Notes: generated by a model not told the origin, from the letters alone. Positions 941 to 52,365 are shown, counted from the first letter of the stretch. The stretch: DNA of 53,622 nucleotides from Chiloscyllium plagiosum (GCF_004010195.1 NC_057718.1:75473295-75526916), one strand, 5' to 3'. Numbers and translations: made by a program.

Positions 941-1840
941 ACATAGAACATAGAACATTACAGCGCAGTACAGGCCCTTCGGCCCTCGATGTTGCACCGC
1001 CCTGTCATACTAATCTGAAGCCCATCCCACCTACACTATTCCATGTACGTCCATTTGCCTGTCCAATGACGACTTAAATGAACTTAAACTTGGAGAATCT
1101 ACTACCGATGCAGGCAAAGCTTTCCATATCCTTTCTACTCTCTGAGAAAAGAAACTATCTCTGACATCTGTCTTATTCCTATCTCCCCTCACTTTAAAGT
1201 TGTGTCCCCTCGTGTTTGCCGTCCCCATACTTGGAAAAAGGCTCTCTCTTCCTGATGAAGGGCTTTTGCCCGAAACGTCGATTTTGCTGCTCGTCGGATG
1301 CTGCCTGAATTGCTGTGCTCTTCCAGCACCACTGATCCAGAATCTGGTTTCCAGCATCTGCAATCATTGTTTTTACCAAAAGGCTCTCTCTGTCCACCCT
1401 ATCCAACCCTCTGATTATCTTGTATGTCTCTATTAAGTCACCTCTCAATCTTCTTCTCTCTAACAAGAACAGCCTCAAGGCCCTCAGCCTTTTCTTGTAA
1501 GACATTCATTCCATACCAGGCAACATCCTAGTAAATCTCCTCTGCACCCTCTCCACACTATCCACAATTCCACCGACCTTAGTGTCGTCTGCAAATTTAC
1601 TAACCCACCCTTCTAAGCCCTCATCCAGGTCATTTATAAAAATGACGAACAGCAGTGGACCCAACACCGACCCTTGCGGTACGCCGCTAGTAACTGGACA
1701 CCAAGATGAACATGTTCCATCAACTACAACCCTCTGTTTTCTTTCAGCAAGCCAATTACTGATCCAAACTGGTATGTCTCCCACAATCCCATTCCTCCGC
1801 ATTTTGTATAATAGCCTACTGTGGGGAACCTTATCGAATG
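941..1840 (-). mobile_element. CR1 LINE 3' portion with internal deletion
   Basis: ORF 1506-1847(-) has [17 protein letters not shown] and KFADDTK, then jumps directly to [10 protein letters not shown]. Tail acatagaacatagaac at 941. Confidence 0.92.
1250..1377 (+). mobile_element. Short PLE-derived hammerhead-bearing insert (family A) inside CR1
   Basis: Perfect 14-bp TSD aaaaggctctctct (1236-1249 / 1378-1391). Insert begins tc-CTGATGA-a-GGGC-tttt-GCCC-GAAA-cgtc-ga. Confidence 0.9.
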
Positions 1841-2864
1841 CAACCACGCAAATATAACCTGTTCTACTTACCCTTCCCAGAAGTCCGAAGTGGCAGGGAG
1901 CTTCCCTACTGCAGGCAATTCTTACCTTATTGTACAGTGAGGAAAATTGTGAATCTGATAGGGAGGGCAGTTCAAGGTGATAGGATAGGAGTTAGAAGCT
2001 GATGGTCAAGGAGCATAAAGTTCTCAAGGTGGGGTATTTCAAGGAATGTCAGGATGCTTGTGGTCTCAGTCAGACAAAGGTGGTGTCAAAAGGAACATTG
2101 CCACATGGATAGTAAAGAGCTCATAGGGCAAAATGGAGACAGCAAATGGGGAATGGGAGGGGTAGGGAAAGTATGGAAGGTCATAGGGCAACAGGGATTG
2201 TAAACGCATAAGGGAAAAAACAAAATTGGGGTGGGGGATTGGATCTGGTGAGTGGCAGGGAAATTTTGTCCTCAAATAATAGCTGACTCAGAATGAATAC
2301 CACCAATCTGTCTTCAAAATAGCTGCATTTCTCTGTCAGTTCTGAAAGGGCTATGTCTACACTGAGAATAGAATTCATGGAGGCGATGGGCAGATGGCCG
2401 CTTTTATTTTCTGGCTAACTCTAAGAGACAACCCATTAGTCAATATTCCAATAGTCAGAGAATCATAATCAACTGCTTTCAATTGCTACATAGCTAGCAG
2501 ATTAACAGTAGTTATAGTCTCATACTGCAATGAGATCACATGAAGTTATGGAGATTCAGTACAGTGTGGCCTGATTGCCTTATTGATTAGTGAACAACTG
2601 AGACAGCAAGAGAAAACAGTTAGGGACAAAAAATCTATAAGCTTCCCCATCACTGCAAGCTAACCATTATAAGGAGAGCTCTGGCATTCCAGCTATATGC
2701 TATTTCTGAATAGGGGGAAGTGCTGTAGGAGTAGGGGTTTACATAGGTCATTGGTAGCTCCATTATGTCAAAGCAAGCAAGATAGAACAGTTTTGCTGCA
2801 ACCTCCCTGAAGGAAAGCTGACTATCGTCAATTTGCTTCCTGTTGGATTCAGGAAGTCAAGCTG

Positions 2865-3620
2865 CCAGGGCAACTAGCTTTGCTGCTATTTCAGGATTTC
2901 CACCGCTGCAGGGTGTAATCAATTGCTCCAGTGTTGCTGGTTGCTGATATGAAACTCTGATGGCAATGTTGATGAATAGGAAAAGTTCCATTTCATGAGC
3001 CTGAGGGCCATCTGTGTTCACACCAATATGCAGTTGTTGTGACTCCTACATTCTGGAATATTTACAGGTGCCTCTGCTCCTAAAAGAATGGTTGGTCAGA
3101 GACTAAGGCAACCCTCTCAAAATCTGGCTGATACCTGCCAAGAATTTTCAGACTGGCACTGAGAGGAATAATGCTGCAGAGGTTGCTACAAGTGTCATTG
3201 TAGAGCAGACCATAGGCCTTGAAGAGAACATTCAGAAAACTTGACCAGTCAGGTGGTGCAATGCAATAAATGTCAGAGGGTTCAGCAACATCATAGATGC
3301 TGATGTTAGTGAGGTTCCACACATCCTGAAACATCAGCACCTCATCTTCTGCTTGGGAACACTACAGCCTACAATATTCAACATAGAGTTCAATAATTTG
3401 AGAGCCTGAACACCTATTTTCATGTCCTTTACTCATATCCGTTTTCCTCCTCCATCAGTTCTGAAGAAGGGTTACTGGATTCGCAATGTTAACTACTTTC
3501 TCTGCACAGCTGCTGTCAGACCTACTGATTTCCAGCAACTTCTGTTTCTGTTTCAGCACCATCGTTGTTTGCTGTAGCCTCCATAACCTTACACAACAAA
3601 GGAAGCTGAAAATGTGGAGA
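2865..3620 (+). pseudogene. Degenerate PIF/Harbinger DDE transposase (HARBI1-like), interrupted by a PLE fragment
   Basis: Frame-broken translation: FAAISGFPPLQGVINCSSVA / LMNRK / CCDSYIL / WLVRD*GNPLKIWLIP / VIVEQTIGL-KRTFRKLDQSGGAMQ / [insert] / TIVVCCSLHN. These blocks are collinear with the Harbinger transposase motifs. Confidence 0.8.
3330..3551 (+). mobile_element. PLE 3' end (ORF C-terminus plus pseudo-LTR with degenerate hammerhead, family A')
   Basis: QHLIFCLGTLQP...NIEFNNLRA*, then agtt-CTGAAGA-...-gcaa-tgtt-aact (3457-3494). Diverged duplication ttcagca(a/c)catc at 3281 / 3552. Confidence 0.8.
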
Positions 3621-4301
3621 TGGTCCTGGAGGGCCCTCACAGAAATCAACAGGGTTATGGTCTGACATAACAAAGTCATACATGCAACTGCCATCTATTT
3701 CCAGAACAATTAAGCTATGTGGACCCATGTTTTTAAACAGCTAGGTCACCATTGCATGCTCGATATAACAAACCTCATCGAGTGAGAAGGATTTCATTTT
3801 ACCCTATTGTTTGCAATAAAGGCTATGCTCTTATCCTTTACCTGCTTATGATGTGATTACCTTTTGAGGCTAGAAACAGAAATGGCAAACCTAAGCTTTG
3901 TGGTATTTGTGTGCAACTGTAGCTGTTACACATTAAGTACTTCTACAAACAGAAGCTCATGGATAATGGTAACAATAAGGGCTGTGCCTGCATCAAATAG
4001 GGGACTTAAAAGGATACATTCAACCCGGGGTGAGGAGGGCGGTTTGTGACGTCTTATCTGATGTTAATAGTTGCATTCTTCCTCACTATCGCTACAGTAC
4101 TTCAGAATATTAGGATTCTTCTGTGTTCTGTTGCAATAGCTGAGCAGCCCCATTACTGTCGGCTGCATCAATGCAAACACTTCCCCAGTACCATCCTAAA
4201 GAATGCAAAAAGTGATATCTAAACTGGGCAATGCCTACCTCATTGAATGCCTAACCTGGCTATAGAAAACCCAGTAAGTGGGAAAAAAGCTGCCTCTACG
4301 C

Positions 4302-4395
4302 ACTGTAGATGCGAGTCGCTGGAAAAGCACAGCAGGTCAGGCAGCATCCAAGGAGCAGGAGAATCAATGTTTCGGGCATAAACCCTTCATAGATG
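4302..4395 (-). mobile_element. Short PLE-derived hammerhead insert (family A), core damaged
   Basis: Minus strand reads ct-atga-agggtttatgccc-gaaa-cattgattctcctgctcc, the same family as the 1250 copy. Confidence 0.8.
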
Positions 4396-4779: not shown

Positions 4780-6575
4780 CCGGGTAATTATATTAGGGGA
4801 TTTCAACTACTCCAATTAATTAGAATAATCATAGTATACAGGGTTTAGCAGGGGCAGATTTCTTGAAATGTACATGAGTCTGCATTTAGATCGTCCTACA
4901 AAAGAAAGTGTAGAGCTGGACTTAATTCTGGGGAATGAAGCCAATCAAGTGTTTGAGGTGACAGTGTAGAGCAATACTGGATAAAATGGAATAGACAGAC
5001 ATAGAACAGGTACTAAAGGGAGCAAAATAACAGAGAGCCTAGAGGTGTATAACAAGTACAGGGAAAAATTCAAGAATGCAGTTAGGAGACAAAAAAGGGG
5101 CATAATAAAGTCCAAGCAAGCAAGATTAGGGAGAATCTCAAGATACTTTAGAAGTATATCAAGAGGGAAGAGAAAAACCAGGAAAAGAGTAAAGCTTATT
5201 AGCAAACAAGGAGCAATCTGTGCATGAAGCCAGAGAACATTGGTAGAGTATTAAACTGAATACTTGCACATCTTAAAATGCATAAATCCCCAGGACCTGA
5301 TCAGGTATAACCCAGAACTGAGGGACAGGCTTTATATGTATTTGGAAAGGCAAGGACTGATTAGGGATGGTCAACATGTCTTTGTGCATGGGAAATAATG
5401 TCTCACTAACTTGACAGAATTTTTTGAAGAAGTAACTAAGAGAATTGATGAGGGCAGAGCTGTATGGACTTCGGTAAGGCATTCAACAAGGGTTCTTTTA
5501 GTTGGCTGGTTAGCAAGGTTAGATCACATGGAATAAAGGGAGAGCTAGCCATTCGGTTACAGAACCAACTTGATAGTGGTTATGAAGGGTTACTTTTCAG
5601 ACCAGAGGCCTATGACCAGTGCTGTGCCACAAGAATCAGTGCTGAGTCTATTGCTTTTCATCATTTTTATAAATGATTTGGATGTGAAAATAGGAGTGTG
5701 CAGATGATACCAAAATTGGAAGTGTAATGCACAGCGAAAAAGGTTACCTCAGAGTACAATGGGATCGTGATCGGGTGGACCAATGGGCCGAGGAGTGGCA
5801 GATGAAGTTTAATTTAGATAAATGTGAAGTGCTGCATTTTGGAAAGGCAATTCAGGGCAGGACTTATACACTTAATGATAAGGTCCTGGGAAATGTTGCT
5901 GAACACAAAGTAATCTTGAATGCAGATTCATATTTTCTTGAAAGTGGGGTCATAGCTAGATAGGATAGTGAAGGCGCCATTTAGTATGCTTGCCTTTATT
6001 GGTCAGTGCATCAAGTATAGGAGTTGGTAGGTCATGTTGCAGCTGTACAGGATATTGGTGAGGCAACTTTTAGAATGTAGTGTGCATTTCTGGTCTCCCT
6101 CCTATGGGAAGGATGTTGTGAAACTTGAAAGGGTTCAGAAAATATTTCTAAGGATGTTGCCAAGATTGGACGATTTGAGCAATTGGGAGAGGTTGAATAG
6201 TCTGGAGCTATTTTTGGAGGGCGAGGTTACAGATCTTATAGTGGTTTATAAAATTATGAGGGGCATGGATAGGGGAGTCCAAAACTAGAGGGCATAGGTT
6301 TAAGGTGAGAGGGAAAAGATTTAGAAGGGACCTAAAGGGCCACTTTTCATGCAGAGGGATGTGTATGTATGGAATGACCTGCCAGAGGAAGTGGTGGACA
6401 CTGGTACAATTACAATATTTAAAAGGCATCTGGATGGATACATGATTAGGATGGGTTTAGCGGGATATGGGCTAAATGCTGGCAAATGGAAGTATATTGA
6501 ATTAGGATATCTGTTCGGCATGGATGAGTTTGGCTGAAGGGTCTGTTTCGATGCTGAACACCTCCATGACTCTGT
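4780..6575 (+). mobile_element. CR1 LINE ORF2 (endonuclease remnant through 3' end), multiply deleted and frameshifted
   Basis: GDFNY, MDFGKAFNK, ADDTKIG, WQMKFNLDKCEVLHFG, LERVQKIF; 3' tail ctccatgactct. Confidence 0.92.
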
Positions 6576-7108: not shown

Positions 7109-7314
7109 AAGAAGAACGTGAGGACTGCAGATGCTGGAGAGTCAGAATTGATAAAGAGTGGTGCTGGAAAAAGCATAGCAGGTCAGGCAGCATCTGAGGA
7201 GCAAGAGAGTCAATGTTTCGGGTCCTGATGAAGGGTTATGCCTGAACCAATGACTCTCTTGCTTCTCAGATACTGCCTGACCTGCAATAATTTTTCCTGT
7301 ACCAAACTTATTTA
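7109..7314. mobile_element. Fold-back (inverted pseudo-LTR) PLE hammerhead insert (family A)
   Basis: 13/14 TSD ctttgccaa(g/a)gtcc (7095 / 7315). Arms are reverse complements and the junction lies at gtttcgggt|cctgatgaag. Confidence 0.85.
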
Positions 7315-7404
7315 CTTTGCCAAAGTCCCACATGGAAAAGAAGGCAAAAGCTCATGAGATTCAGCATAACTTGGCAAGATGGATTCAAAATTGATTATGA
7401 ATTT

Positions 7405-9039: not shown

Positions 9040-9467
9040 GGAGAGTGGAGCGGATAGGTGGAAACGAAGATGGAGAGGTAGGACAACACAGGAGGGCGGT
9101 GCCGATTTGGAAGTTTGGAACTGGGATAAGGTGCGGGGAAGGGAAATGAGGAAACTAGTGAAGTCCACATTGATGCTGTGTGGTTGGAGGGTCCCAAGGC
9201 GGAAGGTAAGATGTTCTTCCTCCAGGCGTTTGGTGGTTAGGGTGTGGCTCCACCCTCCTCTCTGACCTATCACCTTTACCCCCACCTCCATCCACGTATT
9301 GCACTCTCAGCTACCTTCACCCCAGCCCCACCCTCCTGCCATTTATATCTCTACCCCCTCGGCTCCCAACTTCATTCCTGATGAAGGGATCTTGCCCAAA
9401 ACGCCAATTCTCCTGCTCCTTGGATGCTGTCTGACCTACTGTGCTTTTCCAGCACCACACTCTCGAC
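9040..9467. mobile_element. PLE 3' end (minus strand) with inverted pseudo-LTR (plus strand) carrying a degenerate hammerhead
   Basis: Minus strand RLEEEHLTFRLGTLQPHSINVDFTSFLIS. Plus strand attc-CTGATGA-agggatcttgccc-aaaa-cgcc at ~9374-9410. Confidence 0.85.
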
Positions 9468-10835: not shown

Positions 10836-10925
10836 TCCTTTGGAGGGTAGTGGTAAACTCCTTCTCTAAACTGCTGCAGTCCATCTGATAGAGAACATCC
10901 CAAAGTGCCATTATTCAGACACTCC
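10836..10925 (-). mobile_element. 3' end fragment of the old CR1/L2-group LINE
   Basis: ccttctctaaactgctgcagtcc segment resembles the terminal region also seen near 34780. Confidence 0.5.
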
Positions 10926-10929
10926 AAGA

Positions 10930-12310: not shown

Positions 12311-12974
12311 AATACTCAGCAATTTTCAAGAAACCCTATGTATCAAAATTGAATGGTGCGCAGCTTGAAGGTAATAGCATTCCCGTGTTCCTTCTGAATT
12401 TATTCTTTTGGATGGTAGATATTACATGTTTAGGAAGTGCTATTGACTAAGTCTTCGCTAGCGCTAGTATATCCATTCTGAAACACGCTCTGGCTCATCC
12501 CAAGCTGTTGTCAGATCCCTGAGTCCCTGAGTGAAATGTTGCAAGTTAATCACAGCAAATGTGAGAAACACAAGAGGTTACTTTCAGTCTCTTTTTCATC
12601 TGCCTGCGGAGTTCTAGGTATCATTAGGAATCAATGAGCTTAGTCATTAAATGTCCACAGCTTTGTATCTATAGAACATTTTCGCTCAAAGGGTGACTTA
12701 ACTACAGTGAAGAAGACTGTTAGGATTGTGGGGAGTGGAATGTGCTAGTAATCATGCCCCATTACTGTGCAATTCACACCATTAACATAAATGGCTCAGT
12801 TCAATTATCAAAGTGGCCATTTTTTTCCCCCTTGTACTGCTGTCCAGAATAAAAAAGGAGGCTTTGACAGGTATTTTTAGTGAAATGGAAAAACATTCAT
12901 TTACCAAAACAAAACTAATTTCTTAAAGCAAGTGGCAAAATTGGTTAACATCAAAACAATATTCAAGATAGGAA

Positions 12975-13145
12975 CAAAACAAAACTAAAAAATGCTGGAG
13001 AAATTCAGCAGGTCTAGCAGCATCTGTGGAGAGAAAAAGAGTTATTGTTGCAAGTTCAGTTTGACTATTCTTCAAAATTGATTTTCTCCAGCATTTTCAG
13101 ATTTTATTTTAGATTTCCAGCATACACGGTATTTTCCTTTTACAT
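12975..13145. mobile_element. Old fold-back PLE pseudo-LTR insert (family A')
   Basis: aatgctggagaaa...gcagcatctgtggagaga arm and reverse arm tttctccagcatttt. Decayed hammerhead at the junction (~13040-13080). Confidence 0.7.
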
Positions 13146-13674: not shown

Positions 13675-13865
13675 AAAGTTTGTGCGAAGATTTGTAGCTC
13701 GGGTGCTCGTTGTTGTGGTTCTGTTCGCCGAGCTGGAAGTTTTTGTTGCAAACGTTTCGTCCCCTGGCTAGGCGACATCATCGATGCTTGGGAGCCTCCT
13801 GCAAAGCGCTTCTTTGATGTTTCCTCCGGTGTTTATAGTGGTCTGTCCCTGCCGCTTCCGGTTGT
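13675..13865 (-). mobile_element. Young PLE pseudo-LTR insert, third hammerhead family (C)
   Basis: 8-bp TSD ctttactc (13667 / 13866), CpG-rich. Minus strand gca-TCGATGA-t-gtcgcc-tagcca-ggggac-GAAA-cgtt-tgc (13748-13787). Confidence 0.8.
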
Positions 13866-14379
13866 CTTTACTCTGAGATTTGAGAAACAGATACGAAGTC
13901 CAGAGAGGGTTGCTGGACACCTGTCAGCACAGGTTAACCTCATCCAAAGTTAGGTTTCAGGCAGCTAAGGGTAATAAACCCCATTTCTTATCCCATAAAT
14001 CTTGGCTTCACTACCAATCTAGTTTCTGAGAAACCCCATCAGTTCCCTTCACCCTTGGATTGGGGTGGTGAGGGGGGTAGTGAGGTGGGTAGGAGGAGTG
14101 GAGATGAGCAGAAAATTCTGTTTAAACCATAAAGCATCCAAGCAGTTCAATTTCTTTCAGTCTTTCACAGTCCATCAATATAATTATGTGATTCAGACAA
14201 AGACAGTAAGCTTGCTTGGTTTCATTTGTACAATCACAGTCCAGATTGAAGGATATTTAAAGTATGTGAGCACTGAGGGCAGTCTGTTCACTCCAAAGGA
14301 TCATGGAGAATCATAGCTGTCATTGAGAGGGACAGAAGGAGTAAGGAAAATTAATTAGTTTTAGTATTTAAAACTAACG

Positions 14380-21264: not shown

Positions 21265-21363
21265 GATTAGAGTCAAGATTGTGGTGCTGGAAAAGCACAG
21301 CAGGTCAAGCAGCATCCGAGGAGCCGGAGAATCGACATTTCGGGCCAGAGCCCTTCATCAGGA
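21265..21363 (-). mobile_element. Short PLE-derived hammerhead insert (family A)
   Basis: 7-bp TSD aagatta (21258 / 21364). Minus strand ttc-CTGATGA-a-GGGC-tctg-GCCC-GAAA-tgtc-gatt. Confidence 0.85.
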
Positions 21364-21383
21364 AAGATTAAATCATCAGGAAA

Positions 21384-21920: not shown

Positions 21921-22519
21921 GTTTTAATCCCCAGAACACATCAAACCCTAATTCCTTGATGTTCAAAATTTCCCCCAATTATGTTTTTATTAAGGGGATG
22001 AGCTTCAAGATTATAATAAAAGGCTAATTCTACTATTTTTAGTAGAAGGTTAACTTCTATAATAGAAATGCATTTATTGTACCAACAGAAAGCCTACAAT
22101 TGAGTTATGATTATTTTTAACTTTGGTTAATAAGACCATAAGACATAGGAGTGGAAGTTAGGCCATTCGGCCCATCGAGTCCACTCCGCCATTCAATCAT
22201 GGCCGATGGGCATTTCAATTCCACTTATCCGCATTCTCCCTGTAGCCCTTAATTCCTTGTGACATCAAGAATTTATCAATCTCTGCCTTGAAGACATTTA
22301 GCGTCCCGGCCTCCACTGCACTCCGCGGCAATGAATTCCACAGGCCCACCACTCTCTGGCTGAAGAAATGTCTCCGCATTTCTGTTCTGAATTTACCCCC
22401 TCTAATTCTAAGGCTGTGTCCACAGGTCCTGATTTGGAGATGCTGGTGTTGGACTGGGGTGTACAAAGTTAAAAATCACACAACACCAGGTTATAGTCCA
22501 ACAGGTTTAATTGGAAGCA

Positions 22520-22554
22520 CACTAGCTTTCAGAGCGATGCTCCTTCATCAGGTG
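22520..22554 (-). ncRNA. Minimal type-I hammerhead ribozyme (family B), core intact
   Basis: cac-CTGATGA-a-GGAGC-atc-GCTCT-GAAA-gc-TA^gtg, with a G.U wobble in stem II. Confidence 0.8.
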
Positions 22555-22689
22555 ATTGTGCAGGCATCCCTGCCTGCAACGTATAAGATAGACAATGTTG
22601 GCTGAGTCACATGAGTACCTGCCATGTACACGGTGGGAGGTGTTCCCACGCGTAATAGTGGTATCTATTACGATCGAGCCCTCCACAAT

Positions 22690-22724
22690 CACCTGATGAA
22701 GGAGCGTCGCTCCGAAAGCTAGTG
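22690..22724 (+). ncRNA. Minimal type-I hammerhead ribozyme (family B), core intact
   Basis: cac-CTGATGA-a-GGAGC-gtc-GCTCC-GAAA-gc-TA^gtg. Stem I cac/gtg, palindromic AGCT in place of stem III, predicted cleavage after A22721. Confidence 0.85.
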
Positions 22725-23849
22725 TGCTTCCAATTAAACCTATTGGACCATAACCTGGTGTTGTGTGATTTTTAACTTTGTCCACGGGTCCTAGTCTCCT
22801 CGCCTAACGGAAACAATTTCCTAGCATCCGCCCTCTCCAAGCCATGTATTATGTTGTAAGTTTCTATTAGATCTCCCCCTTAACCTTCTAAACTCCAATG
22901 AATACAATCCCAGGAGGCAGTTTAGTGGATCTAAAAGAATCACTTCCTGCTACTCTTTGTCCACAAGTAGTTCTGTAAAGATACTTACCTCATGGATTAA
23001 ATTCTCACATCAGCTTTCACCTACCAGATTCCTTAAGGCCTGGAAAACTGATGACAAGTTAAACAGTTAAAATTAAGGCACAGGACCTTGTTGTATTTAA
23101 GTGACCAATCTCTCTCCTCTGAGGAGCATAGTTGCTGAGTCCTCAATCTACCTCTGTTTAAGCCCGAAGGGGGCAAATACAGGTAGGTTGGTATCCTGTT
23201 TCAGTTTTTTGAACCTCTGAGCAACTTAATCCACCTGTTTTGGGGAGTTACAATTCAACCTGCAGTGTCTGTACTACAGGTGGTTCCTGTATTTTGAGTG
23301 GAAGAGGGCATCATGTCACCCACTGCTCTCCCCCATCTCTACTGTGACTGTATAGGCTCAGGATAGGAGGGGGAGGAATCAGAAGGTCTGCCAGCTCATG
23401 GGCCAACTAGATGTTTAAAAGGACAAATAAAGCCCACTTACAGGCCTTGTCCTGCTGTTACTCTAATTTAACAGCAGCAGGAGAAGCCTAATGTCTAGCA
23501 TGACAGGTTTGAACCTGTGGGTTGGTGTGTAGCTAAAAGCAGTAGAGGCTTTCTTTCTGGGCTCCTGGTGTCACTTAGAAGTCCCAATCCTTCAAACAGT
23601 ACTCCTTTCCTTCCCCCAGCCTGCCCAACATACATGCCCACACTTCTCACTGGGGCCTGGATTGACAAGGCCCTGGATGTACTTCGAGGTGCAAATCCAT
23701 CGCTGATTGTCTCCACAATGTCTGTGGGGGCAGTACTGTCAGTGGCCCTCTATCCCAATACTGTTGGCCTTTGATTAGCTGATAGCTCTCAGAGGAGGGA
23801 CTTACTTATGGCAACGGTTGGAACTCTCACCTCATTCCCATGAATGGCT

Positions 23850-29060: not shown

Positions 29061-29109
29061 AAAAAAATAAGTTTAAACTTCATTTTGTCAAAACGTTTAC
29101 ACTGACATT

Positions 29110-29380: not shown

Positions 29381-29389
29381 TTCAGTGAA

Positions 29390-29800
29390 GCGTTACTCCA
29401 TTCGGAGGTGGCTGGTTTCGGCAATGTTAAATCAAGGCCACATTTACACTTCTTTGCATTAACATAAAAGAGATTCCATGGTGCTATTTTGAAAAAAAGA
29501 GCAGGGAAGTTCTCCCCTGGGTCCTGGCCAATATTGATCTCAATCACACCTGAAAAAGATCATCTGGTCATCATTTTGCTGTCATTGTGACAGCTTGTTG
29601 TGCACAATTTGACTACCACTTATCCCACATTACAGCAAAAACTAAATTTCAAAAATACTTGTTAATAGCAAACATAGAAATGCTGGCAGTATCTGTAAAG
29701 AGAAAAACAGTGTTAACATTGAGTCTAATATGATTTTCTTCAGAACATTTTTACTTGCTTTGGGATGTTGCTATATAAATGCAAGTCTCCCTTTCTTTGT
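29390..29800 (+). mobile_element. Deu-domain SINE (AmnSINE1/SacSINE1-related)
   Basis: gattccatggtgctattttgaa..agagcagggaagttctcccc.gg.gtcctggccaatatt...gctatataaatgcaagtct matches the recalled DeuSINE core and tail. Confidence 0.8.
29662..29751 (-). mobile_element. Old short PLE pseudo-LTR insert (family A') in Deu-SINE
   Basis: 6-bp TSD tacttg (29656 / 29752). Minus strand tgtt-CTGAAGA-...-caatgtt-aaca, a decayed hammerhead. Confidence 0.65.
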
Positions 29801-31669: not shown

Positions 31670-32625
31670 AAAAATCAAAAAGAAAACTGCAGATGCTGTA
31701 AATCAGAAACAAAAACAGAAATTGCTGGAAAAGCTCTGGCAACATCTGTGAAGAGATATCAGAGATAACATTTCCGGTCAAGTGACCTTTCGTCAGAACT
31801 GATGGTAGCTAGGAAAATGTTGGTTCATCGTAGACGGGAGGGGGTAAGGAGAACAGTTGGACAGACAAAGAAACAGGTAATGACCTAGAAGGGTGAATAG
31901 CTATCAAAGGGGACTGTTAGCAGCTAACCATGGGTTGTATGTAATAGCTGACTATGTGTTAACAAAGCCTGATGGGCGGGGCTTGGGCTAAGAGCATGGG
32001 AGAGGTCAAGCTCTAAACATAAAGTCATTGAGTCCGGAGGGCTGCAGGGTGTCCAAGCAGAAAATGAGGTGCTGTAACTCCAGCTTGCACTGAGCTTGAC
32101 CTGCAGCAAGCCTGAGGTTCCCTGTTCTCTGGCCAACATCTCTGTCTCAGGCTTGCTGCTGCGGTCCAGCAAAGCTCAGTGCAAGCCTGAAACACGGTAC
32201 CTTGTTTTCTGCATGGGCACAGTGCAGCCCCCTGGGCTCAATATCAAATTCAAAATCTTTAGGGCTTGAGCTCACCCATGTCCTTATCCCAATTTCCTCC
32301 ACACATTAAGCCTTGTTAACACATCGTTGGCTATTACACACAATCCATTGTTAGCCACGAAAAATCCCCATTAATAGCTATTCATCCTTCTAGCCAGATT
32401 GTTACCCACTCCTTTGTCTGTCCAGCTGCTCTCCTCTCTCTTTGGTTCTATCCCTACCTATCGTTTAACTTTATTTCCCCTCCCCCACCCTATCTACTGC
32501 GTATAAACTGACATTTTCCTAGCTACCATCAGGAAGGGTCACTCACCCCGAAACATTAACTCTGATTTCTCTCCACAGATGCTGCCAGACCTGCTGAGCT
32601 TTTCCTGAAATTTCCATCTTTCTGA
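31670..32625. mobile_element. ~950-bp fold-back PLE insertion (two inverted 3' ends with pseudo-LTRs, family A')
   Basis: Arms are reverse complements about a centre at ~32125, and each carries a CKLE..HL(I/V)FC.GT.QP.GLN-like C-terminus. Left hammerhead agtt-CTGACGA-aa-ggtca-ct-tgacc-g-GAAA-tgtt-atct (31763-31800, minus strand). Confidence 0.85.
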
Positions 32626-37324: not shown

Positions 37325-37496
37325 CCAAAAATCACACAACACCAGGTTATAGTCCAACCGATTTATTTGGAAGCATTAGCTTTCGGAGCACTGAAAACAC
37401 CTAGTGCTTCCAAATAAGCCTATTGGACTATACCCTGGTGTTGTGTGATTTTTAACTTTGTACACCCCAGTCCAACACTGGCACCTCCAAATCTTG
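37325..37496. mobile_element. Fold-back PLE pseudo-LTR insert (family B); hammerhead core lost at the junction
   Basis: 7-bp TSD gataata (37318 / 37497). Arms match the 22431-22778 arms and the fold-back point lies within stem II. Confidence 0.88.
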
Positions 37497-38369: not shown

Positions 38370-40212
38370 CCCAAATCCTTTAAGTCTACTTGTACCTCCT
38401 TCAGAAAGCTCACAAACTGGATTATCCTGATAAACTCAACATTTCAGCCTGTTCCTGTTCCACTGAAATTATTTCTGCCGATCTTGAGTTGACCTTTCTC
38501 CCCCTAATTCAGTCTTTTCCCACTTACATTTGTGATTCTTCTGCCACTTTACATCAGTTCCACACTTCCCAGTTTTCTGGTCTTAGCTGCCTCCTTTTCA
38601 TCATGGATATACAATTCCGCAACATGTCCATTCCCCATCAGAATGGTCTGAAGGCTCTGCACTTCTCCCTTGAAAACAGGCCTGCACAATGTCCTTCGCC
38701 TGGCTGAGGATTTTCTCACATTGAACAACTTTTCCTTTAACTCATCTCATTGGCTTCAATCAAATAAGTGTGGCACATGAATCCAGTTATGCCTGTCTAT
38801 TTGTCAGGTAGTGGAACATTCCTTGTTCCAGTCTTACTTGTTCCATTCACAATTCTTTCCCTGATACATTGATGAGTCTTTAGTGGTGCCTCCTGCTCTT
38901 ATGTGGAATTGTAAAAATTCATCAGTCTTGCCTCTAATTTACATCCTTCTTTTGTCTTCACCTGGTCCATCTGACTCTTTTCTTGGCTTTAATGTTTCGA
39001 TATGACAATAGGCTGTCCATCAGTATCGATTACAGGCCCATCATTTCTCACAATTACCTCAATTTCACCTCCTCACACCCTGCTTCCTGCAAGGATTCCA
39101 TTCCTGTTTCTCTGTTTCTGTTGCTTCTGTTGGTGTCATTTTCCATTGAGCTGCCTCTGATATGATATTCTTTTCCTTAAAACAAGGATTCCTCCACTGT
39201 GATTTCCCCCACATGGCCTTCAGTCTGACCTATCTCCCACACATCCACACTCACCCCTTCTCCTTCCCAGAACATTGGGCTCCCCTTAGCCTTATTTTCC
39301 ACCCCATTTGTCTCCACATTCAAAGACTTTTCACCACTCCCAGCAGGATGCCAGTACTAACCTTCCTCTCCCCTCCACTGTTACCAATCCATTGGGCTTG
39401 TTCCCTCCATGAACCCTGGCCCACTCCTCCATCACTCCAAAAACTTTGTCATGCCCCCATGCCATCTTCCCATGCAATTGCAGAAAGAACAAAAACTTGT
39501 CCATTCACTTCCTCTTGCTTCACTGCCCAAGGCCCTTTCCAGGTGAAGCAGCATTTTGTCTACTGATTCCCTGCTCAGTCTGGTCTCCTTTACAATGGTG
39601 AGACCAAACAGACTGTATGACCACTTTTTGGAACACCTCTGCTTTGTCCTTGGGATGAACCCCTGACTTCCCAGTCACTTGCTATTCCATTAAATGACCT
39701 TGGTTTAATGCTAACATGTTGTACTGGGCTTGCTGCAATGTTCTATTGGCACACATGTAAGCTTGAGGAACAACACCTCAGTTTCTGCTTAGGCACCTTA
39801 CAGTCTCCATGTCTGAACACTGAATTCCATAATTCAATGGTGTAAGAAACTGACCACATTATGTCTGTTCTCTATTTTTCTTACTCTCTCTCCACCCCTC
39901 TCCCCCAACAACAGCCTAGTCTTGTTTGGGTCCTATTTACTTAACTCTTTTCTCCCTTTCATGCCTTACTTCACACCCACATTACATCTCTTTTCCTCGT
40001 TCACCACCATTAAAAACCACTTTGTCCTTTGCACTTAAATTTCCACTGTCTGCCTGCCCTCCTTACTTGACTTCCTGTCTTTCAAAAGTATTTAAAATAT
40101 TTAAATACCTTCAGTTCTGAAGAAGTCATACGCACTCGACATATTGACTCAATTTCTCTCTCCACAGATGCTGCTAAAGCTGCTGATTTTATTCAGCATT
40201 GTCTGTGCTGGT
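38370..40212 (+). mobile_element. Long degenerate Penelope-like element (RT, GIY-YIG, pseudo-LTR with decayed hammerhead)
   Basis: LLFIMDIQFRNMSIPHQNGLKAL, TLNNFSFN, PSYACLF, YIDE, YNGETK, KLEEQHLSFCLGTLQ; agtt-CTGAAGA at ~40113. Confidence 0.88.
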
Positions 40213-43500: not shown

Positions 43501-43770
43501 GGGAAAGATATAAAAGACACCTATGGGGTAACGTTTTCACACAGAGGGTGGTATGTGTATGAAATGAGCTGCCAGAGGAAGTGATGGAGGCTGGTACAAT
43601 TGCAACATTTAAGAGGCATTTGGATGGATATATGAATAGGAAGGGTTTGGAGGGATATGGGCCAGGTGTTGGCAAGCGGGACTCGATTGGGTTGGGATAT
43701 CTGGTCGGCATGGACGGGTTGGACCAAAGGGTCTGTTTCCATGCTGTACATCTCTATGACTCTATAACTA
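40520..43770 (+). mobile_element. Near full-length CR1 LINE (ORF1 esterase plus ORF2 EN-RT), defective
   Basis: ORF1 followed by ORF2 motifs [38 protein letters not shown], with several deletions and stops; tail ctctatgactctataact. Confidence 0.95.
40539..41290 (+). pseudogene. CR1 ORF1 SGNH/GDSL esterase domain (frameshifted)
   Basis: IPISNRYAVL, IVLGDSLVR, CFPGARIKDV, VGTNDIG, DGLHLN. Confidence 0.9.
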
Positions 43771-44615: not shown

Positions 44616-44617
44616 TT

Positions 44618-46002: not shown

Positions 46003-46100
46003 TCTGGATTAGTGGTGCTGGAAGAGCACAGCAGTTCAGGCAGCATCCGAGGAGCAGTAAAATCGACGTTTCGGGCAAAAGCCCTTCATCAGGATTTACC
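46003..46100 (-). mobile_element. Short PLE-derived hammerhead insert (family A) in ERV gag
   Basis: 12/13 TSD tgtatg(a/t)tcttgt (45990 / 46101); near identical to the 1250 copy. Confidence 0.92.
46060..46097 (-). ncRNA. Minimal type-I hammerhead ribozyme (family A), fully intact
   Basis: AAATC-CTGATGA-a-GGGC-tttt-GCCC-GAAA-cg-TC^GATTT: 5-bp stem I, 4-bp stem II, palindromic ACGT, GUC cleavage triplet. Confidence 0.88.
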
Positions 46101-46920
46101 TGTATGTTCTTGTCACCAGAACAAGTTACTAAGTGGCAGAAATAAATGGGCAAGGGTGACAGAAAGGGACCAGACCACACTTATGATGATTTAAACGGCA
46201 GATTCAAAGATAACACTCAAGTGAACCAAATTGTCTAATCGTTAGAGCGTGCCCTGCAACAGCCTGTCAACTTTAGTAAGGTCCTGGACTGCAAACCTAA
46301 GTCAGGAGAGTTCGGAGGGGACGTTTGGGAAAGATTTGTTGACTGTTGTGGGACTTTTGCTGAGGATCAAGCTTTTAACTGCAGAAAGGACTGACCATTA
46401 TTTAACTCTATGATTTTGCAATGTGTCCCTTTGAGCGTCACGGGCATGATACGCACAAATAGCATGGATTGGTCTGAGAACACCAGGTCACAGATGAGGA
46501 GAGCCCTTATTTATTATTGGGACAGCCAGAACAACCCCAAGTTGTAGTCTAAAGGTCAGACAAAAGCAGAGTTTGTTCAGCTGCCCCACGACCACATCAC
46601 ATCTTCAGTCAATACTGGTGATTTTCATTGGAGCCAGGATACCCACTGGAGACACAATCTTCCTCAGATGTCTGTTTCACAGGCCCAGCCATGTGGTCCT
46701 TCCCAAGGGGACCCTGGAGAGGGGAATCGAGGTGTCCCCTGATGTATCTTGGAAGAGGCAGAGACGGGCTCAATACCCAGTTAGACAGACAGGCCCGTGT
46801 TTCAGCTGTGGGAAACCCGGTTACTGGAGAGTCGAATGTCCCTCTCGCTCAGAGCCTGACAACCCACATCCAGGTCTCCTGTCCTGGGCTCCTTTCACAC
46901 CCAACAACCCCTTCACCTGA

Positions 46921-49595
46921 CTCCCGAGCCAGATCCTCCCAGTCATCAGTATGTCCCCCCAGCAGGAACCACACATTACCTTACGGGTGACTGGAAATCC
47001 AATCCTGTTTATGATTGGAATGGGAGCAACCATTTCCGCCCTCGATCAGGAGATTGTGAGGGATCAAGGATTTCAGTTATCAGGTGAGACCATGGCCCTT
47101 GCTGAGTTTGGGGGAACAAGCAGAATATATCATAAAACCGTGCCACTGGAAGCTACGTTCTGCAGGTGGATCTGTACTATTTCTTTCACAATAACAATTA
47201 AGTTTGAATGGATAGGAGGGATCTGCTCTGTCTCCTAGGAGTTGAGATCATCTGTCCAGATGAAGGAATAACTTTGGGGCTGCACAGCCGAATGCAATAT
47301 CCCCAGTTTGCGGTTCCCCAATGGTGGAGGCTTAGCTGTTCCCCCATGTGATGGTTTGCTATGATTCCAATGGATGTTCCACAGAACATAGCTAGTATTA
47401 CACTCCATTTCAGGGCATGGAATTCTCCATTTCAGGAAGGCTCTGCTTATCTTGTTCGGATCCCAGACTACCTGTGATGGCAGACGTTGTTGGCAGTCCC
47501 ACAAAACACTCGAACCGTTGACCCTGAGTATAAACCGAAAGACTAAGGTCATCTTGCCTACACCCCGACTCAACTCACTTCAGACACCAAAGAACTGAGG
47601 CAACACTTTACAGGGGACTGCTTGAAATATTGAGAAATCCCACAACAGAAAAATGGCATTCTGACGGAATCAAAGAAATTAAATGCCAGTTGTGGGCTGC
47701 CTCTGGCCATGAGGTTGGCTATGCCCCTTGTGATCCAGTACAGTTAAAATTAAAAGATAATCAGACTCTGCCCTCAATTCCACAGTATCCCATTAAGCTG
47801 GAGGTGGAACAAGGAATCCAGATCCTTATTAACTCTTTCCTGGCACAAGGTATTCTGGTCCCATGCAAGTCATCTTGCAACCTCTTGATCTTTCCAGTCC
47901 CCAAACCAGGTCGATGGGACTGCCAATTTGTGCAAGACCTGAGGAAGATCAATGTTATTCTTGCACCCTTACACTCCCATGTCCCAAAGCCGGCTACTAT
48001 TTCAAGTTGCATACCTGCTGATGCCTGCATTTTTACGATTGTTGACCTACAGCACACATTTTTTGCCATTCTGCTGCACCCACATTCTTAATATTCATTT
48101 GCCTTCACCTACCAGGGCCAGCAGTCCACTTGGACATGCCTGTCCCAAGGTTTTGTCCATTCTCTGACTCTATTCTCGCAAACCCTCCATGGTCAGTTAT
48201 GGACCCTGGACCTCCCGTAGGAATCGATAGTTGTCCAATATGTCAATGACCTGCTTGTCACCAGTAGAAGATTGTCCAACTGTGAGACAGTACTGCTGAA
48301 CTTCTTGCACTCCCTCAGGTATATGGTCCCACCCCATATGGTAAAACACTGTCAGGAAAATGTTAAGTTTTTGGGACTTGTCCTCTCTGTAGGGGAATGG
48401 AAACTGACAGAGGACATCGTACAGTCCATTGCTGGGACCCTGCCGCCTATAACCCCTGAACAGATGTGAGCTTTTGTCAGACGTTTGAATTTCTGTAGGT
48501 AATGGATTCCGAATGTTGCCCTCCATACTCGCCTACTGATCCCACTGGCATCAGCCAATGCCCCTCCCAGCTTTACACTTGCAGCTGAGCAACTGACAGC
48601 CTTTACAGAACTGTTCAACTCCCTTCTGCAAGTCCTGACTGACCGTTCCAATTGTATGTCACCGTTAAAGATTGGTGTGCCACTGCCATCCTCACCCAAA
48701 CCCACAGTGACAGGAAGTGATCAGTGGCATATTAGTACACTAAACTGGACCCAGTGGCAGCCGGCCTCCTGCTCTGCTCACAGGTACTTCCTGCTATACA
48801 TGTTCTCATATCTGCCGCTTCAAATATAACCCGCCATCAGCTGGTTGTGGTTTTAACCCCGCATTCCGTTGTTGACCTTTTCACCTCCCAGCAGACTCAA
48901 GATCTAACACAGGCACACCAGGATAAATATGCCCTACTCAACAATCCACTAGCGACCTTCTCCAATTGCACCACCTTGAATTCTGCTACATTCTTGACAG
49001 AACCCCCTCTCCCGACCACGACTGCCTATTATGGAATCACCTTTTTGCCTCAGGTCATGGTGATTTAGCCGACGTTCCACTTGAACATGGAGACTTCACT
49101 TTTTACGTGGTTGGCAGCTCCTTTGTTTCACCAACAGGTCAGTGATGTTCCAGATACGCGATTGCCCCGGACTCTGAAGTAGTTGAACACATGGCATTTA
49201 AAACTGCACTGTCAGCACAGAAGGCTGAATTGTTTGCCCTCACTCAGGCTTGTATCTTGGCGCAAGGGAAATCGGCCAATATTTATTCACAGTCTCGCTC
49301 CGCTTTCGGCATTACCCATTATTGCAGCATCATATGGGAGCATAGTTGATTTTTAACCTCCATGGGGCAACCCATTAGTAATGCTGTTTTTGCGCATAAT
49401 CTCTTGCAGGCCTTACAGTTACTGTCCAGCCTAGTGGTGATCAAATGTTCAGCTCACACTGGAGCAGCTGACAGAGTCTCCAAGGGCAACACGCAAGTAG
49501 ATGCTGCTGCCATGGCTGTGAAAGTGCAAGGACAACCCCAGTGGATCCACAGAACTTACTGCAAAAGAGTAAATGTGGAAACAGAGAACGATTAG
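46921..49595 (+). pseudogene. pol: ERV pro-pol (protease, RT, RNase H, integrase C-terminal stub)
   Basis: PR FMIGMGATIS (DTG decayed); RT QYPIK, FVQDLRKIN, VDLQHTFF, LSQGF, QYVNDLL; RNase H SAQKAELFAL, KCSAH, GNTQVDAAA; IN tail AVKVQGQPQWIHRTYCKRV. Confidence 0.92.
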
Positions 49596-50520
49596 AGACA
49601 AAGATATATTCCATACCTGTGACTTTGGGGGATGTGACTTTGGGAGTAGACAGATTTCAAACAAACACCCATGCACATAATACTTTTTTGCATTTGGCCT
49701 ATCAGACGGGGCGAGACACTAATTGATGGCTATGTGCCCACATGCCACCCCACTCGGGGAGGGAGTTGGGGGAGTGTATTCCTTTGTGGCCTGTATCTTT
49801 TTGCTGGCACGTGGTGGCCGAATGGCTACTACACCGGAATCTTTCAGGTGATCCTTCTAACACCGATGGTGCACAGGAATGGCAGTCAGCAGGGTATAAA
49901 ATGACATTATTCAGGGATTGGTACCAGCCTAACAACAACAGATTGCCTAGATCTCCCTCCCTTGTCGTTATTAACAACATCACTGATGACGGGAAGGGAA
50001 ACCCTCTAAAGGCACTTATGTGGAGGCAAGTAAGTATTCCATCGATATTCCCTGGGTTGAGACTGTTCAGAATTTAATGAAATATGGCTACTTTGTGTTT
50101 GATTGGTCTGCCATTCAAAATAAGACATCAGGCTCCCTCTGGAATAACCCTGCTCCCAGGTTATAGGGGGTTTCAGTTTCCAACTTTACATCCAACAATG
50201 ACACATATTTTATTTGAGAGCAAAAAGCCCACTTGTGTTAAGCTACAAATGTTGTTGGAGCTGCACCCATTCAGGTAAATGGGGAGCATTCCATCACACT
50301 CCTGACTTGTACCTTGTTGATGATGGACAGACTTTGGAGAATCAGGAGTTGAACTACCTACCACAATATTCCTATCCTCTGAGAGAAAAAAAAATGAGCA
50401 GAATAGCTTATATTCTCCAGAATTTAAAAGAATGAGGTGGATTCATTAAAACAGACTAAATTTTGAAGAAGGTCAATACTGAGAGTCTGGTTCACCTGGC
50501 TGGAGACTGTAGGTGCAGGG
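49541..50520 (+). pseudogene. env: ERV env remnant (gamma-type SU)
   Basis: NTFLHLAYQTGRDTN*WLCAHMPPHS is a CWLC (CXXC) motif with its first Cys mutated to TGA. Weak TM-like TCVKL..KCC at ~50230. Confidence 0.65.
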
Positions 50521-50529
50521 AATGGTCCA

Positions 50530-50790
50530 AAAATAAATGAGCTATTTCGGGCTGAGATAAAGGGAATTATGTCTGTGAGAGGGTGTCACACTTTATCTCA
50601 CAGGACTCTGGAAGCTCAGTCAACTAATATAGTCTAAATTGGCATCAATATATTTTTAGGCATTAAGAAAATTAAGAGAAATGGATATGGGCTTGAATAG
50701 AAATGATATAGAAGTTCAGCCATTATCTATTGAATGGCAGACCAAGTTTGTTAGATCATAGGGTCACACTTTACTATTTTAATGTTTTAT
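50530..50790 (+). mobile_element. Old CR1 3' end
   Basis: FRAEIKG..ERV..EAQSTNI..IFLGIKKIK followed by ttcagccattatctattgaatggcag. Confidence 0.65.
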
Positions 50791-52019
50791 TTTCCTTGCT
50801 CTTGAATGTCAGCATTTATACTGTAGGGTCCAACTCAAACAAATCTCTTGCTATAGGGCAACAAACAGTATTTCTGTTAGTTTTCTAAGAATATGTGTGA
50901 ATCGAAGTGGATAATGAATCTGACCAATTCAGAAGAAAATTAGTAATGACTCACAAAAGCAGAGTTGATGAAGTAAAAATGATTTTAGAAAGGGTCAACG
51001 AGGATGCTGATTACTTGATATGCACGACTGCCATAAAGCCAGAGGATAAAACAATGCACTTTCATTTCAGAAGTGATAAACATCTGTCACAGGCCAAGGC
51101 TCTGTGATAGGAAATCAAGACTGAAAAGAAAAGAACATCGGAGCAAAAACTAAATAATGGAATTACAATTTGGAGACTGCCATTAAAAAAAAGGCCTTGA
51201 TGGTGTCAGTCGTTTCCACAAATGGTTGAAGCAATTTGTTTTTGGGCAAGATGACTGTCTGATTTTCTACTTTCACGACACAATCCTTAGTATACATTTG
51301 TGAACAAATCCTCGTGACTATTCCCCTGAACTAAAACTTTGGCTTGATACAAATAAATGATACGTTATCAATAATAAATGCTGTTGTTTTCATTTCACAG
51401 CCAGCAGATATTGTGCGATTCAATTAGCACTTGCAGAGAAAAATAAGGGGCATCCTATGTTTACTGTCATCACCACCAGGTCATTTTATTTAGATTTGTT
51501 TCAGAATATTGCTCCCACATTACATCCAAAAACCTAGTGTTTTATTTAAATTGAGGTGCACTCAGCTGGACCTGCCAGGTGCTTGCTCACAAAAATTGTC
51601 TGCGCAGGCACACCCTATGTTCTAGAAGATTCTGAATCATTGTGGAAGGCAACCTGCAGTGTACAATCCAAACAAAAAATTTGTACATCCCTTGCCAAAG
51701 GTTGGACATGGGCCCTGAATCAATGCTTTTTTAAAAAAAGGTCACTCAGCATTTGCAGCTTAATTAGATTTTCAGAAAGTACAATCTAGAGTTTTTGAAG
51801 TGCTGGAGGAATTAGTACTAGTGGCTAAGAAGGCATGGATGCAGTTGTTACAGTGCCCCTTGATCTGCAACCCTAACTGGACATGAAGGAGAAGATGCAA
51901 AAGTAGGAAGGAGTCAAGGGCTCTCCACAGAAAGTCCAACCTATCGGGGTTTTTCAGACTTCACCTGTCCCACAATCAATACCCAAGCTGACTAGGATTC
52001 AACAAGGTTGTGGTCCATA

Positions 52020-52100
52020 TTTAGAATTATAATATCCTTTATTGTCATGTGTACAGGGGTACAGTGAAAGGTTTACAATATCAATTCTGATAGCACCATC
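52020..52100 (-). mobile_element. Rex1/Babar-like 3' tail fragment
   Basis: tttattgtcatgtgtac...tacagtgaaa, as at 8014 and 16850. Confidence 0.55.
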
Positions 52101-52238
52101 CTAGGTACAGAGTATTTAGGTACAAATCTTAGATATAAAATGAGGCATAAAAAAGCTGCACTACCTTCAGTTAGAAATAAGACAGTTAAAAGCATAAACA
52201 TTACACTCAGGTAAACAGATTACCGATAAATGTTACAT

Positions 52239-52365
52239 AGCGAAAGCGAAGACTGCAGATGCTGAAGATTAGAGTCAAGACTAGAGTGGTGCTGGAAAAG
52301 CACAGCAGGTCAGGCAGCATCAGAGGAGCAGGAAAATTGACATTTCGGGCAAAAGCCCTGATGAA
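52239..52365 (-). mobile_element. Short PLE-derived hammerhead insert (family A) with micro-inverted core
   Basis: 7-bp TSD gttacat (52232 / 52366). Ends tttcgggcaaaagccc-tgatgaa where other copies read gccc-ttcatca. Confidence 0.85.

What the first reader, a model, noticed from the sequence alone, without database searches (positions are those of the whole stretch)
1250..52365. Dense population of hammerhead-ribozyme mini-retroelements in four covarying families
Seen in sequence: about 15 inserts carry CTGAnGA-stemII-GAAA-palindrome-UH cores, intact or decayed. The core is shared while the helices differ and still pair. Family A is AAATC/GATTT with GGGC/GCCC (1250, 4302, 7109, 9374, 21265, 46003, 52239). 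Family A' is AGTT/AACT (3457, 13040, 29662, 31763, 40113), family B is CAC/GTG with GGAGC/GCTCC (22520, 22690, 37325), and family C is GCA/TGC (13748). Stem III is reduced to a palindrome (ACGT or AGCT). Established: minimal type-I hammerheads with this architecture occur in Penelope pseudo-LTRs and are thought to cleave as dimers. Inference: the 90-200-bp TSD-flanked, ORF-less copies behave as a ribozyme-headed SINE/retrozyme-like system mobilised by PLE RT/GIY-YIG, which would place self-cleaving motifs every few kb in this genome.
Basis: partly seen in the sequence, partly recalled or inferred. Interest (0 to 1): 0.78.

Follow-up and report, generated by a model that had tools for sequence, protein, structure and literature searches.

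The report
Shark Penelope retroelement ends with hammerheads
These 15 short insertions are real and carry a known type of minimal hammerhead-ribozyme motif, intact in only four; they look like end pieces of Penelope-type jumping genes in shark-type DNA, likely dead stubs copied from uncut RNA rather than a separate self-cutting mobile element, so the finding is ordinary.

Summary
The repeats are real: the 16 coordinates resolve into 15 insertions. Five arms keep an exact hammerhead core, stem II and cleavage triplet (0.017 expected); four also keep the palindrome. The family details are weaker than stated. AAATC/GATTT occurs in 1 of 7 family-A copies and is a junction accident. No A' copy is intact, C is one copy with a broken core, and family A shows no compensatory pair.

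The copies are best read as pseudo-LTR ends of Penelope-like elements (PLEs). Five of 15 carry ORF relics: one is 82-89% identical to carpet-shark GIY-YIG proteins, four are recognised by motif only. Six of six two-ended fold-backs have the tail on exactly one arm, the published PLE signature. Ten of 15 start at the core; none clearly starts at the cut site. No tandem array or Pol III box was found, and poly(A) reads show no loss at the cut site.

Solo and inverted minimal PLE hammerheads were described in 2014 (PMC4209133). This scan reported the same thing many times on other DNA of this genome. New member of a known kind; interest low.

The parts
1250..1377 (+). Family A (young subfamily) stub with tail; intact motif 1252-1279 (GUC); starts 2 nt before the core
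   Evidence: TSD 14/14 at 1236 and 1378
3293..3551 (+). A' copy: last ~25 codons of a PLE-like ORF (motif level), ~50-nt spacer, decayed hammerhead at 3461
   Evidence: TSD 11/12 (alternative 8/8 start near 3334)
4318..4389 (-). Family A stub starting inside the core (first three core bases absent), no tail
   Evidence: TSD 11/12
7109..7314 (.). Family A fold-back: minus arm with tail (starts in stem II), plus arm without tail (starts at the core, GAAA broken); inserted in a CR1-like RT relic
   Evidence: TSD 13/14; host read by eye
9040..9467 (.). Family A copy with 3' UTR and decayed hammerhead on + (core 9378) and an inverted ORF-end/UTR piece on - (9040 to about 9232)
   Evidence: ORF end recognised by motif only; no convincing TSD
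12960..13141 (.). A' fold-back: minus arm without tail (decayed core, starts ~7 nt upstream), plus arm with tail
   Evidence: TSD 11/12
13675..13866 (-). Single family-C copy; core has two changes, stem II 5 of 6 pairs, GUU triplet; runs ~80 nt upstream of the core
   Evidence: 7-nt TSD read by eye
21265..21382 (-). Family A stub, exact core 21361-21334 but palindrome broken; short duplicated restart at its 5' end; inserted in a SINE/LINE tail
   Evidence: 7-nt TSD
22431..22778 (.). One family-B insertion: minus arm with tail (motif 22551-22523, one G-U in stem II), GIY-YIG piece, plus arm without tail (intact motif 22693-22721, CUA); both arms start 9-10 nt before the core
   Evidence: TSD 13/14; arms 96% alike
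22561..22683 (-). 41-codon piece of a PLE-type GIY-YIG domain between the two B arms
   Evidence: 82-89% identical to 8 proteins, 4 named Chiloscyllium punctatum and 1 Hemiscyllium ocellatum; P0006 resembles GIY-YIG/HTH_animal clusters at 0.96
29665..29747 (-). Old, decayed A' stub starting about 2-3 nt before the core
   Evidence: no convincing TSD; ends approximate
31671..32613 (.). A' fold-back: both arms run from an ORF end through the UTR to a damaged hammerhead; minus arm with tail, plus arm without
   Evidence: TSD 14/16; arms 81% alike over 391 aligned bases
37325..37496 (.). Family B fold-back lacking the core: minus arm without tail (starts in loop II), plus arm with tail (starts near GAAA)
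   Evidence: 7-nt TSD
38700..40210 (+). Long decayed A' copy: RT-like, linker-like and GIY-YIG-like motifs (to ~39845), ~270-nt UTR, decayed hammerhead at 40117
   Evidence: translation; weak matches to family-B proteins only; ORF end matches other A' ORF ends by blastn; start approximate
46003..46100 (.). Young family-A stub on - without tail, intact motif 46092-46065 (GUC), plus a 6-nt tail tip on + that creates the AAATC strand
   Evidence: TSD 12/13; 96% alike to the 1250 copy
52239..52365 (-). Family A stub with tail; 5' end is a micro-inversion of the short hairpin around the core
   Evidence: 7-nt TSD; same joint class in reads and contigs

Best explanation
These insertions carry minimal hammerhead motifs and are likely the pseudo-LTR ends of three or four Penelope-like retrotransposon lineages, likely written as dead stubs by the full-size elements' own reverse transcriptase from RNA that the ribozyme had likely not cut. 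Steps: (1) the GIY-YIG domain likely nicks both target strands some 7-16 bases apart (TSDs shown; enzyme activity from PMC11167929). (2) Reverse transcription likely starts at two fixed sites downstream of the hammerhead, with and without the tail, one per nicked strand, giving head-to-head arms of which exactly one has the tail (pattern shown; priming inferred). (3) When the enzyme uses the pLTR copy at the front of the RNA it would run off the RNA's 5' end just before the core, giving a 70-130-base stub; when it uses the rear copy it runs into UTR and ORF and stops at variable points (start clustering shown; the RNA-start reading is inferred and was taken from earlier notes of this scan). 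(4) After insertion the motif decays, largely at CpG sites, and solitary copies are predicted not to cleave.
For: GIY-YIG piece inside one TSD with two B arms. ORF-end motifs upstream of A and A' arms, homologous among the A' copies. Tail on exactly one arm in 6 of 6 fold-backs whose two arms both end in pLTR sequence (7109, 13040, 22431, 31671, 37325, 46003), as described in PMC8557442 and PMC3846280. Ten of 15 insertions have their most upstream pLTR base between 10 nt before and about 12 nt after the first core base; none clearly begins at the cut site (+28/+29). Fixed 3' ends with diverse flanks in contigs (1654 contigs at 22430, agreement 0.36; 224-405 contigs at 1377). Summed contig depth about 35-fold lower on the GIY-YIG piece than just downstream of the B motif (not a copy number). 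Largest listed fold-back joints reach depth 269 against millions for the repeat. Presumed-sense RNA depth upstream/downstream of the cut 1.01 against 0.78 antisense, no pile-up of read ends. CpG transitions at 6-15% in the motif, while listed non-CpG variants in DNA fall on N7 and loop II. Double-hammerhead fold 11-15 kcal/mol above the cofold minimum in 4 of 4.
Against: The A and A' ORF relics were not confirmed by any search: no hit, only unrelated hits, hhalign E 0.015-0.07, and a frameshift-aware score of 50.8 that beats 40 shuffles (max 45.1) but not another tile of the window (54.3). No long copy of the young A subfamily or of C lies in the window. No clear extra G at any stub start here (two ambiguous: 22561 and 7223), so the capped-RNA reading is not verified. 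The 46003 tail tip rests on 6 bases. The plus arm at 37393 starts within a few bases of the cut and is ambiguous. The RNA test is one poly(A) single-cell run, about 2% read, with inferred strand, pooled over mostly decayed copies; it would miss a small cleaving subset.
Confidence: 0.78

Rival explanations
1. At least one subfamily (the young A type at 1250 and 46003) is a true non-autonomous element: short stubs are transcribed and re-mobilised in trans by PLE proteins, SINE-like.
For: The two copies are 96% alike, share diagnostic bases, both start 2 nt before the core, and no ORF-bearing copy of this subfamily is in the window. pLTRs suffice in cis for mobilisation in a rotifer (PMC3846280, passages), Penelope has an internal promoter in its pLTR (PMC2377424, passages), and putative non-autonomous Chlamys exist (PMC8557442, passages). 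B-type reads show about 3:1 presumed-sense bias.
Against: The two copies differ in 3' end and junction; no dominant shared junction; 99% of RNA reads run on into unrelated sequence; no Pol III boxes in 9 arms; other families in the window are ORF-linked.
Confidence: 0.12
2. The starts cluster at the hammerhead because reverse transcriptase stalls or snaps back at its hairpins, not because the RNA begins there.
For: Several arms stop inside stem II or loop II (7109, 37325, 52239) or in the core (4302); a short inverted repeat brackets the core and recurrent joints use it (1249 with 1254 or 1260); PMC3846280 (passages) reads junction palindromes as self-priming.
Against: Both arms of the 22431-22778 insertion stop at the same point 9-10 nt upstream of the core, beyond the hairpin; six further arms start 1-7 nt upstream of it. 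The predicted hairpins are modest (monomer folds -8 to -14 kcal/mol).
Confidence: 0.25
3. The copies come from ribozyme-cut, possibly circular RNA (retrozyme-like), and intact motifs cut host transcripts.
For: Four motifs are letter-perfect; listed subfamily-level variants avoid core and stem II, which suggests selection on master elements; a few goes-back joints of 40-81 nt exist at single-copy depth.
Against: No tandem arrays; stubs keep the sequence upstream of the cut; no read loss or pile-up at the cut; palindrome duplex only -1.7 to -2.5 kcal/mol; in the one reconstituted PLE uncut RNA is the template and cleavage needs the protein (PMC11167929).
Confidence: 0.06

Closest known systems
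Minimal hammerheads (min-HHR) in pLTRs of metazoan PLEs (Cervera and de la Pena 2014, PMC4209133; parts 1-2 of 4 read)
   Same: Type-I core, one unpaired base before stem II, G10.1-C11.1, palindromic 15.2-16.2 with no loop III, several families per genome, mostly solo motifs, and pairs on opposite strands 100-700 bp apart, read there as truncated PLEs; fish, coelacanth and frog named.
   Different: Sharks are not named in the parts read; stem II here is 4-6 bp and native family-A stem I is very short; activity of these sequences is untested.
Insertion units of endonuclease-positive PLEs: 5' truncation, inverted pLTR, 30-40-bp tail at one end (PMC8557442, PMC3846280, PMC8969392; passages read)
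   Same: Head-to-head arms, tail on one arm only, short TSDs, GIY-YIG at the ORF end followed by UTR and hammerhead.
   Different: Most copies here are reduced to the pLTR tip and start at one narrow zone; no partial tandem or full-length copy lies in this window.
Poseidon-Ac of Anolis (Frangieh et al. 2024, PMC11167929; parts 1-2 of 4 read)
   Same: Two reverse-transcription start sites bounding the tail, both target strands nicked and extended, uncut RNA as template, no RNA-seq ends at the cut site.
   Different: In Poseidon-Ac the ORF starts in stem II; here no long frame was seen starting at the motif in family A (read by eye), and family-B proteins carry a cysteine-rich linker, which PMC8557442 gives for Neptune/Nematis types.
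Animal non-LTR retrozymes (bioRxiv 10.64898/2026.07.22.740005; part 1 of 5 and passages read)
   Same: ORF-less, type-I hammerhead, related to PLE pLTRs, reported from one cartilaginous fish; dispersed monomers noted.
   Different: Defined as tandem repeats with a hammerhead in each unit; no tandem unit here, and arms are inverted and tailed.

Membership tests
Minimal type-I hammerhead of PLEs | CUGANGA core, stem II, GAAA and UH in order | tested here: met
   5 arms exact, 0.017 expected; the other 11 listed coordinates are decayed or truncated
Minimal type-I hammerhead of PLEs | Palindromic 15.2-16.2 with no loop III | tested here: met
   ACGU or AGCU in 4 of 5
Minimal type-I hammerhead of PLEs | Covarying stems | tested here: inconclusive
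   0 of 6 pairs compensatory within family A; stems differ between families and still pair, but that is only three or four sequences; listed population variants avoid stem II apart from CpG (40 of 45 rows shown)
Minimal type-I hammerhead of PLEs | Self-cleavage as dimer or with protein | not testable with these tools
   Only folding energies and one RNA run
Endonuclease-positive PLE | C-terminal GIY-YIG upstream of the pLTR | tested here: met
   Family B:
Endonuclease-positive PLE | Same for families A, A' and C | tested here: inconclusive
   Motif-level relics for A and A'; searches negative or weak; none seen for C
Endonuclease-positive PLE | Inverted pLTR with tail at one end, short TSD | tested here: met
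   6 of 6 two-ended fold-backs; TSD in 12 of 15 (8 strong)
Endonuclease-positive PLE | Partial-tandem full-length copy; RT phylogeny and clade | not testable with these tools
   No genome held; no intact RT in the window
Non-LTR retrozyme | Tandem units each with a hammerhead | tested here: not met
   No such array among 6 TRF rows; arms are single or inverted
Non-LTR retrozyme | Abundant small circular or cut linear RNA | tested here: inconclusive
   Poly(A) single-cell library unsuited; no end pile-ups
SINE | Pol III head (tRNA-like, box A/B) | tested here: not met
   No box in 9 arms scanned with recalled consensus patterns; no tRNA gene
SINE / non-autonomous family | Own master copy: shared diagnostic bases and fixed structure, no ORF-bearing twin | tested here: inconclusive
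   Junctions diverse; young A subfamily untestable without the genome

The most novel reading that the evidence does not exclude
The young family-A stub is a genuine ~130-base non-autonomous element that is transcribed from its own pLTR promoter and re-mobilised by PLE proteins, and its intact hammerheads cut host pre-mRNAs when the PLE protein or a second transcript supplies the dimer partner, giving sharks a very large, conditional set of RNA cut sites.
Probability: 0.08. Interest if true: 0.6.

Novelty: new member of a known kind. Interest (0 to 1): 0.2.

Why it matters
As a class this is known. Its value is as a natural record of the poorly understood PLE copying cycle: the fixed 3' ends, one-tail fold-backs and clustered 5' starts fit the in vitro picture from the anole element (two start sites, both strands, uncut template) and can be counted genome-wide. 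It would matter more if a stub subfamily proved self-propagating or if intact motifs cut host RNA; the evidence here points against both.

Tried and rejected
No whole genome is held, so no genome-wide counts were made. Rfam found no hammerhead; its two weak miRNA hits are far below gathering score and one is the 7109 fold-back. Protein searches with the A' relic: nothing, three unrelated low-complexity hits (rejected), Atlas best 0.77, no Pfam family. The Pfam copy gave no family for the B proteins either; PDB sequence search nothing significant; AlphaFold model unusable (pLDDT 30.6), so no fold search was run. Metagenome scans found nothing. No RNA holder was listed; run X22 laid 0 reads (no test). 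Extra G at stub starts (lead from earlier notes): no clear case, two ambiguous. One-way A-to-G editing in fold-back arms (lead e1-8168005): not seen in four arm pairs; at 31671-32613 A>G 10, G>A 13, T>C 15, C>T 11. A first impression that those two arms were too unlike for one insertion (66% with gaps) was dropped: 81% at aligned bases. Paper searches for a shark-specific description: 'Penelope, shark, retrotransposon, Neptune' 0 papers; 'Penelope, shark, genome, repeat' 35 papers, 20 listed, none on this by title; one search gave 0. Lunse et al. on dimer cleavage is not held and is cited through PMC6765202.


Full report
Observation. All 16 coordinates carry hammerhead-type repeats. They resolve into 15 insertions, since 22520 and 22690 lie inside one TSD, and four unlisted second arms belong to listed insertions. 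An exact core with stem II, GAAA and a UH triplet occurs five times, against a mean of 0.017 in 300 first-order Markov simulations. Four of the five keep the ACGU or AGCU palindrome. The motif is real, but only four copies in 53.6 kb are intact.

Family details. The stated family-A stem I (AAATC/GATTT) is in 1 of 7 copies. At 46003 the insertion ends on the + strand with six bases that match the tail tip of the 1250 copy, and their reverse complement supplies the AAA. Loose ends in four runs end in CTCA before position 1249, matching the long copy at 9374, so the native stem I is two pairs, a U-U and one more pair. None of the five A' copies is intact. C is one copy with two changes in the core. 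Among eight family-A arms no pair changes on both sides. Across the population, the listed non-CpG variants inside the motif in DNA runs fall on N7 and loop II, while CpG transitions hit six positions at 6-15% (40 of 45 rows shown). I infer selection on master elements and free decay after insertion. A and A' cross-match by nhmmer, so there are three or four lineages.

What the copies are. The 123 bases between the two B arms encode 41 residues that are 82-89% identical to eight proteins, five named from Chiloscyllium punctatum and Hemiscyllium ocellatum. These proteins show an RT C-terminal part, a cysteine-rich linker and a GIY-YIG-type end by eye (motif names recalled), and one resembles GIY-YIG/HTH_animal clusters at 0.96 in the Atlas. 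The window is therefore likely from a carpet shark or relative (inference). Four further insertions (3293, 9040, 31671, 38700) carry a shared ORF-end motif 50-300 bases from a hammerhead arm; the A' versions match each other by blastn at E 2e-3 to 2e-7. These four are recognised by motif only: every database search with them was negative or weak.

Anatomy. Twelve of 15 insertions have a TSD, eight with 11 or more matching bases and four with seven. Six insertions have two head-to-head arms that both end in pLTR sequence, and in all six exactly one arm has the tail; one of the six rests on a 6-base tip. This is the published PLE signature (PMC8557442 and PMC3846280, passages). Ten of 15 have their most upstream pLTR base between 10 nt before and about 12 nt after the first core base; five run 80 bases or more upstream. 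None clearly starts at the cut site 28-29 bases downstream; the arm at 37393 is close and ambiguous. Both arms of the B insertion stop at the same point, which fits a hard end of the template.

Population data. Contigs of DNA runs show fixed 3' ends with unrelated flanks. About 700-840 contigs per run leave the window at 1249 with agreement 0.33; that position is where this copy's flank begins, so it shows diverse flanks, not the exact start. Summed depth on the GIY-YIG piece is about 35-fold below the part downstream of the B motif, and both are far above unique flanks; the tool warns that this is no copy number. Listed fold-back joints are many and shallow, so no single mini-element structure dominates.

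RNA and folding. In one poly(A) single-cell run (1801 reads laid, about 2% of the run read) 99% of reads run on into unrelated sequence, both strands are about equal for family A, no ends pile up, and presumed-sense depth is not lower upstream of the cut (ratio 1.01 against 0.78 antisense). Strand was inferred, helped by a SINE/LINE tail with poly(T) loose ends. The library suits this question poorly and pools mostly decayed copies. The double-hammerhead fold lies 11-15 kcal/mol above the cofold minimum for all four intact motifs; this ignores tertiary contacts and protein help.

Mechanism. Shown: TSDs, one-tail fold-backs, clustered starts upstream of the cut, ORF linkage for B. From the literature: the anole element nicks and extends both strands, starts at two sites bounding the tail, and uses uncut RNA (PMC11167929, parts 1-2 of 4). 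Inferred: each nick primes at one site; use of the front pLTR copy of the RNA gives stubs by run-off, use of the rear copy gives longer pieces. The run-off-at-RNA-start idea, with an extra G, came from earlier notes of this scan; I found no clear extra G here, so stalling or snap-back at the hairpins remains a live rival for the start clustering.

Comparison. Cervera and de la Pena (PMC4209133, parts 1-2 of 4) already describe thousands of solo minimal hammerheads per genome, several families, and opposite-strand pairs, as truncated PLEs. Retrozymes are defined by tandem units (bioRxiv 10.64898/2026.07.22.740005, part 1 of 5 and passages), absent here. No Pol III box or tRNA-like gene was found. 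Dimer cleavage and its low rate are taken from PMC4209133 and a review (PMC6765202, passages); the primary dimer paper is not held. I opened no supplements; those of the bioRxiv paper and of PMC4209133 may list shark families. Searches for a shark-specific paper found none, which covers only the held library.

Verdict. Observation partly confirmed, interpretation partly supported. New member of a known kind, found repeatedly by this scan elsewhere in the same genome. Interest 0.2.

Noticed in passing
window 46400-50100: Retrovirus- or gypsy-like relic: zinc-knuckle frame at 46498-46917 (Pfam E 0.039) and an RT-like frame at 47534-48088 by eye (no Pfam hit). Broken; described only.
   Followed up: no
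window 52355-52366: The 5' end of this copy looks like a micro-inversion of the short hairpin around the core; the same joint class appears in raw reads and in three contig sets.
   Followed up: partly
window 22130-22244: RNA reads lie 27,000-31,000 deep on one strand with fixed loose ends, likely a strongly expressed transcript from elsewhere that carries this repeat piece.
   Followed up: no
window 1275: A-to-C change in GAAA in 95 of 681 presumed-sense RNA reads but under 0.2% of DNA depth; likely one expressed locus with a dead motif.
   Followed up: no
window 21364-21382: Short duplication of the element's first bases at the 5' junction, as if copying restarted once.
   Followed up: partly
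window 13826-13835: A TATA-like run about 45-50 nt upstream of the family-C core, inside the insertion; possible pLTR promoter.
   Followed up: no
window 1506-1991, 5300-6570, 10900-12230, 14380-15170, 24143-24799, 42542-43760: Several decayed LINE copies with RT (Pfam RVT_1 at two frames) and shared 3' tails; the dominant repeats of the window.
   Followed up: no
window 40536-41057: Frame with weak GDSL/SGNH-esterase-like Pfam match (E 0.013), likely a LINE ORF1 relic.
   Followed up: no
window 8487-8951: Frame matching Pfam ALKBH8_N (E 2e-9), in a repeat present three times; likely a LINE C-terminus rather than a host gene.
   Followed up: no
window 1370-1377 and 52239-52250: Family-A tails end in a pyrimidine run, followed in the population by TAG/TAA, resembling a splice acceptor; unexplained.
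   Followed up: no
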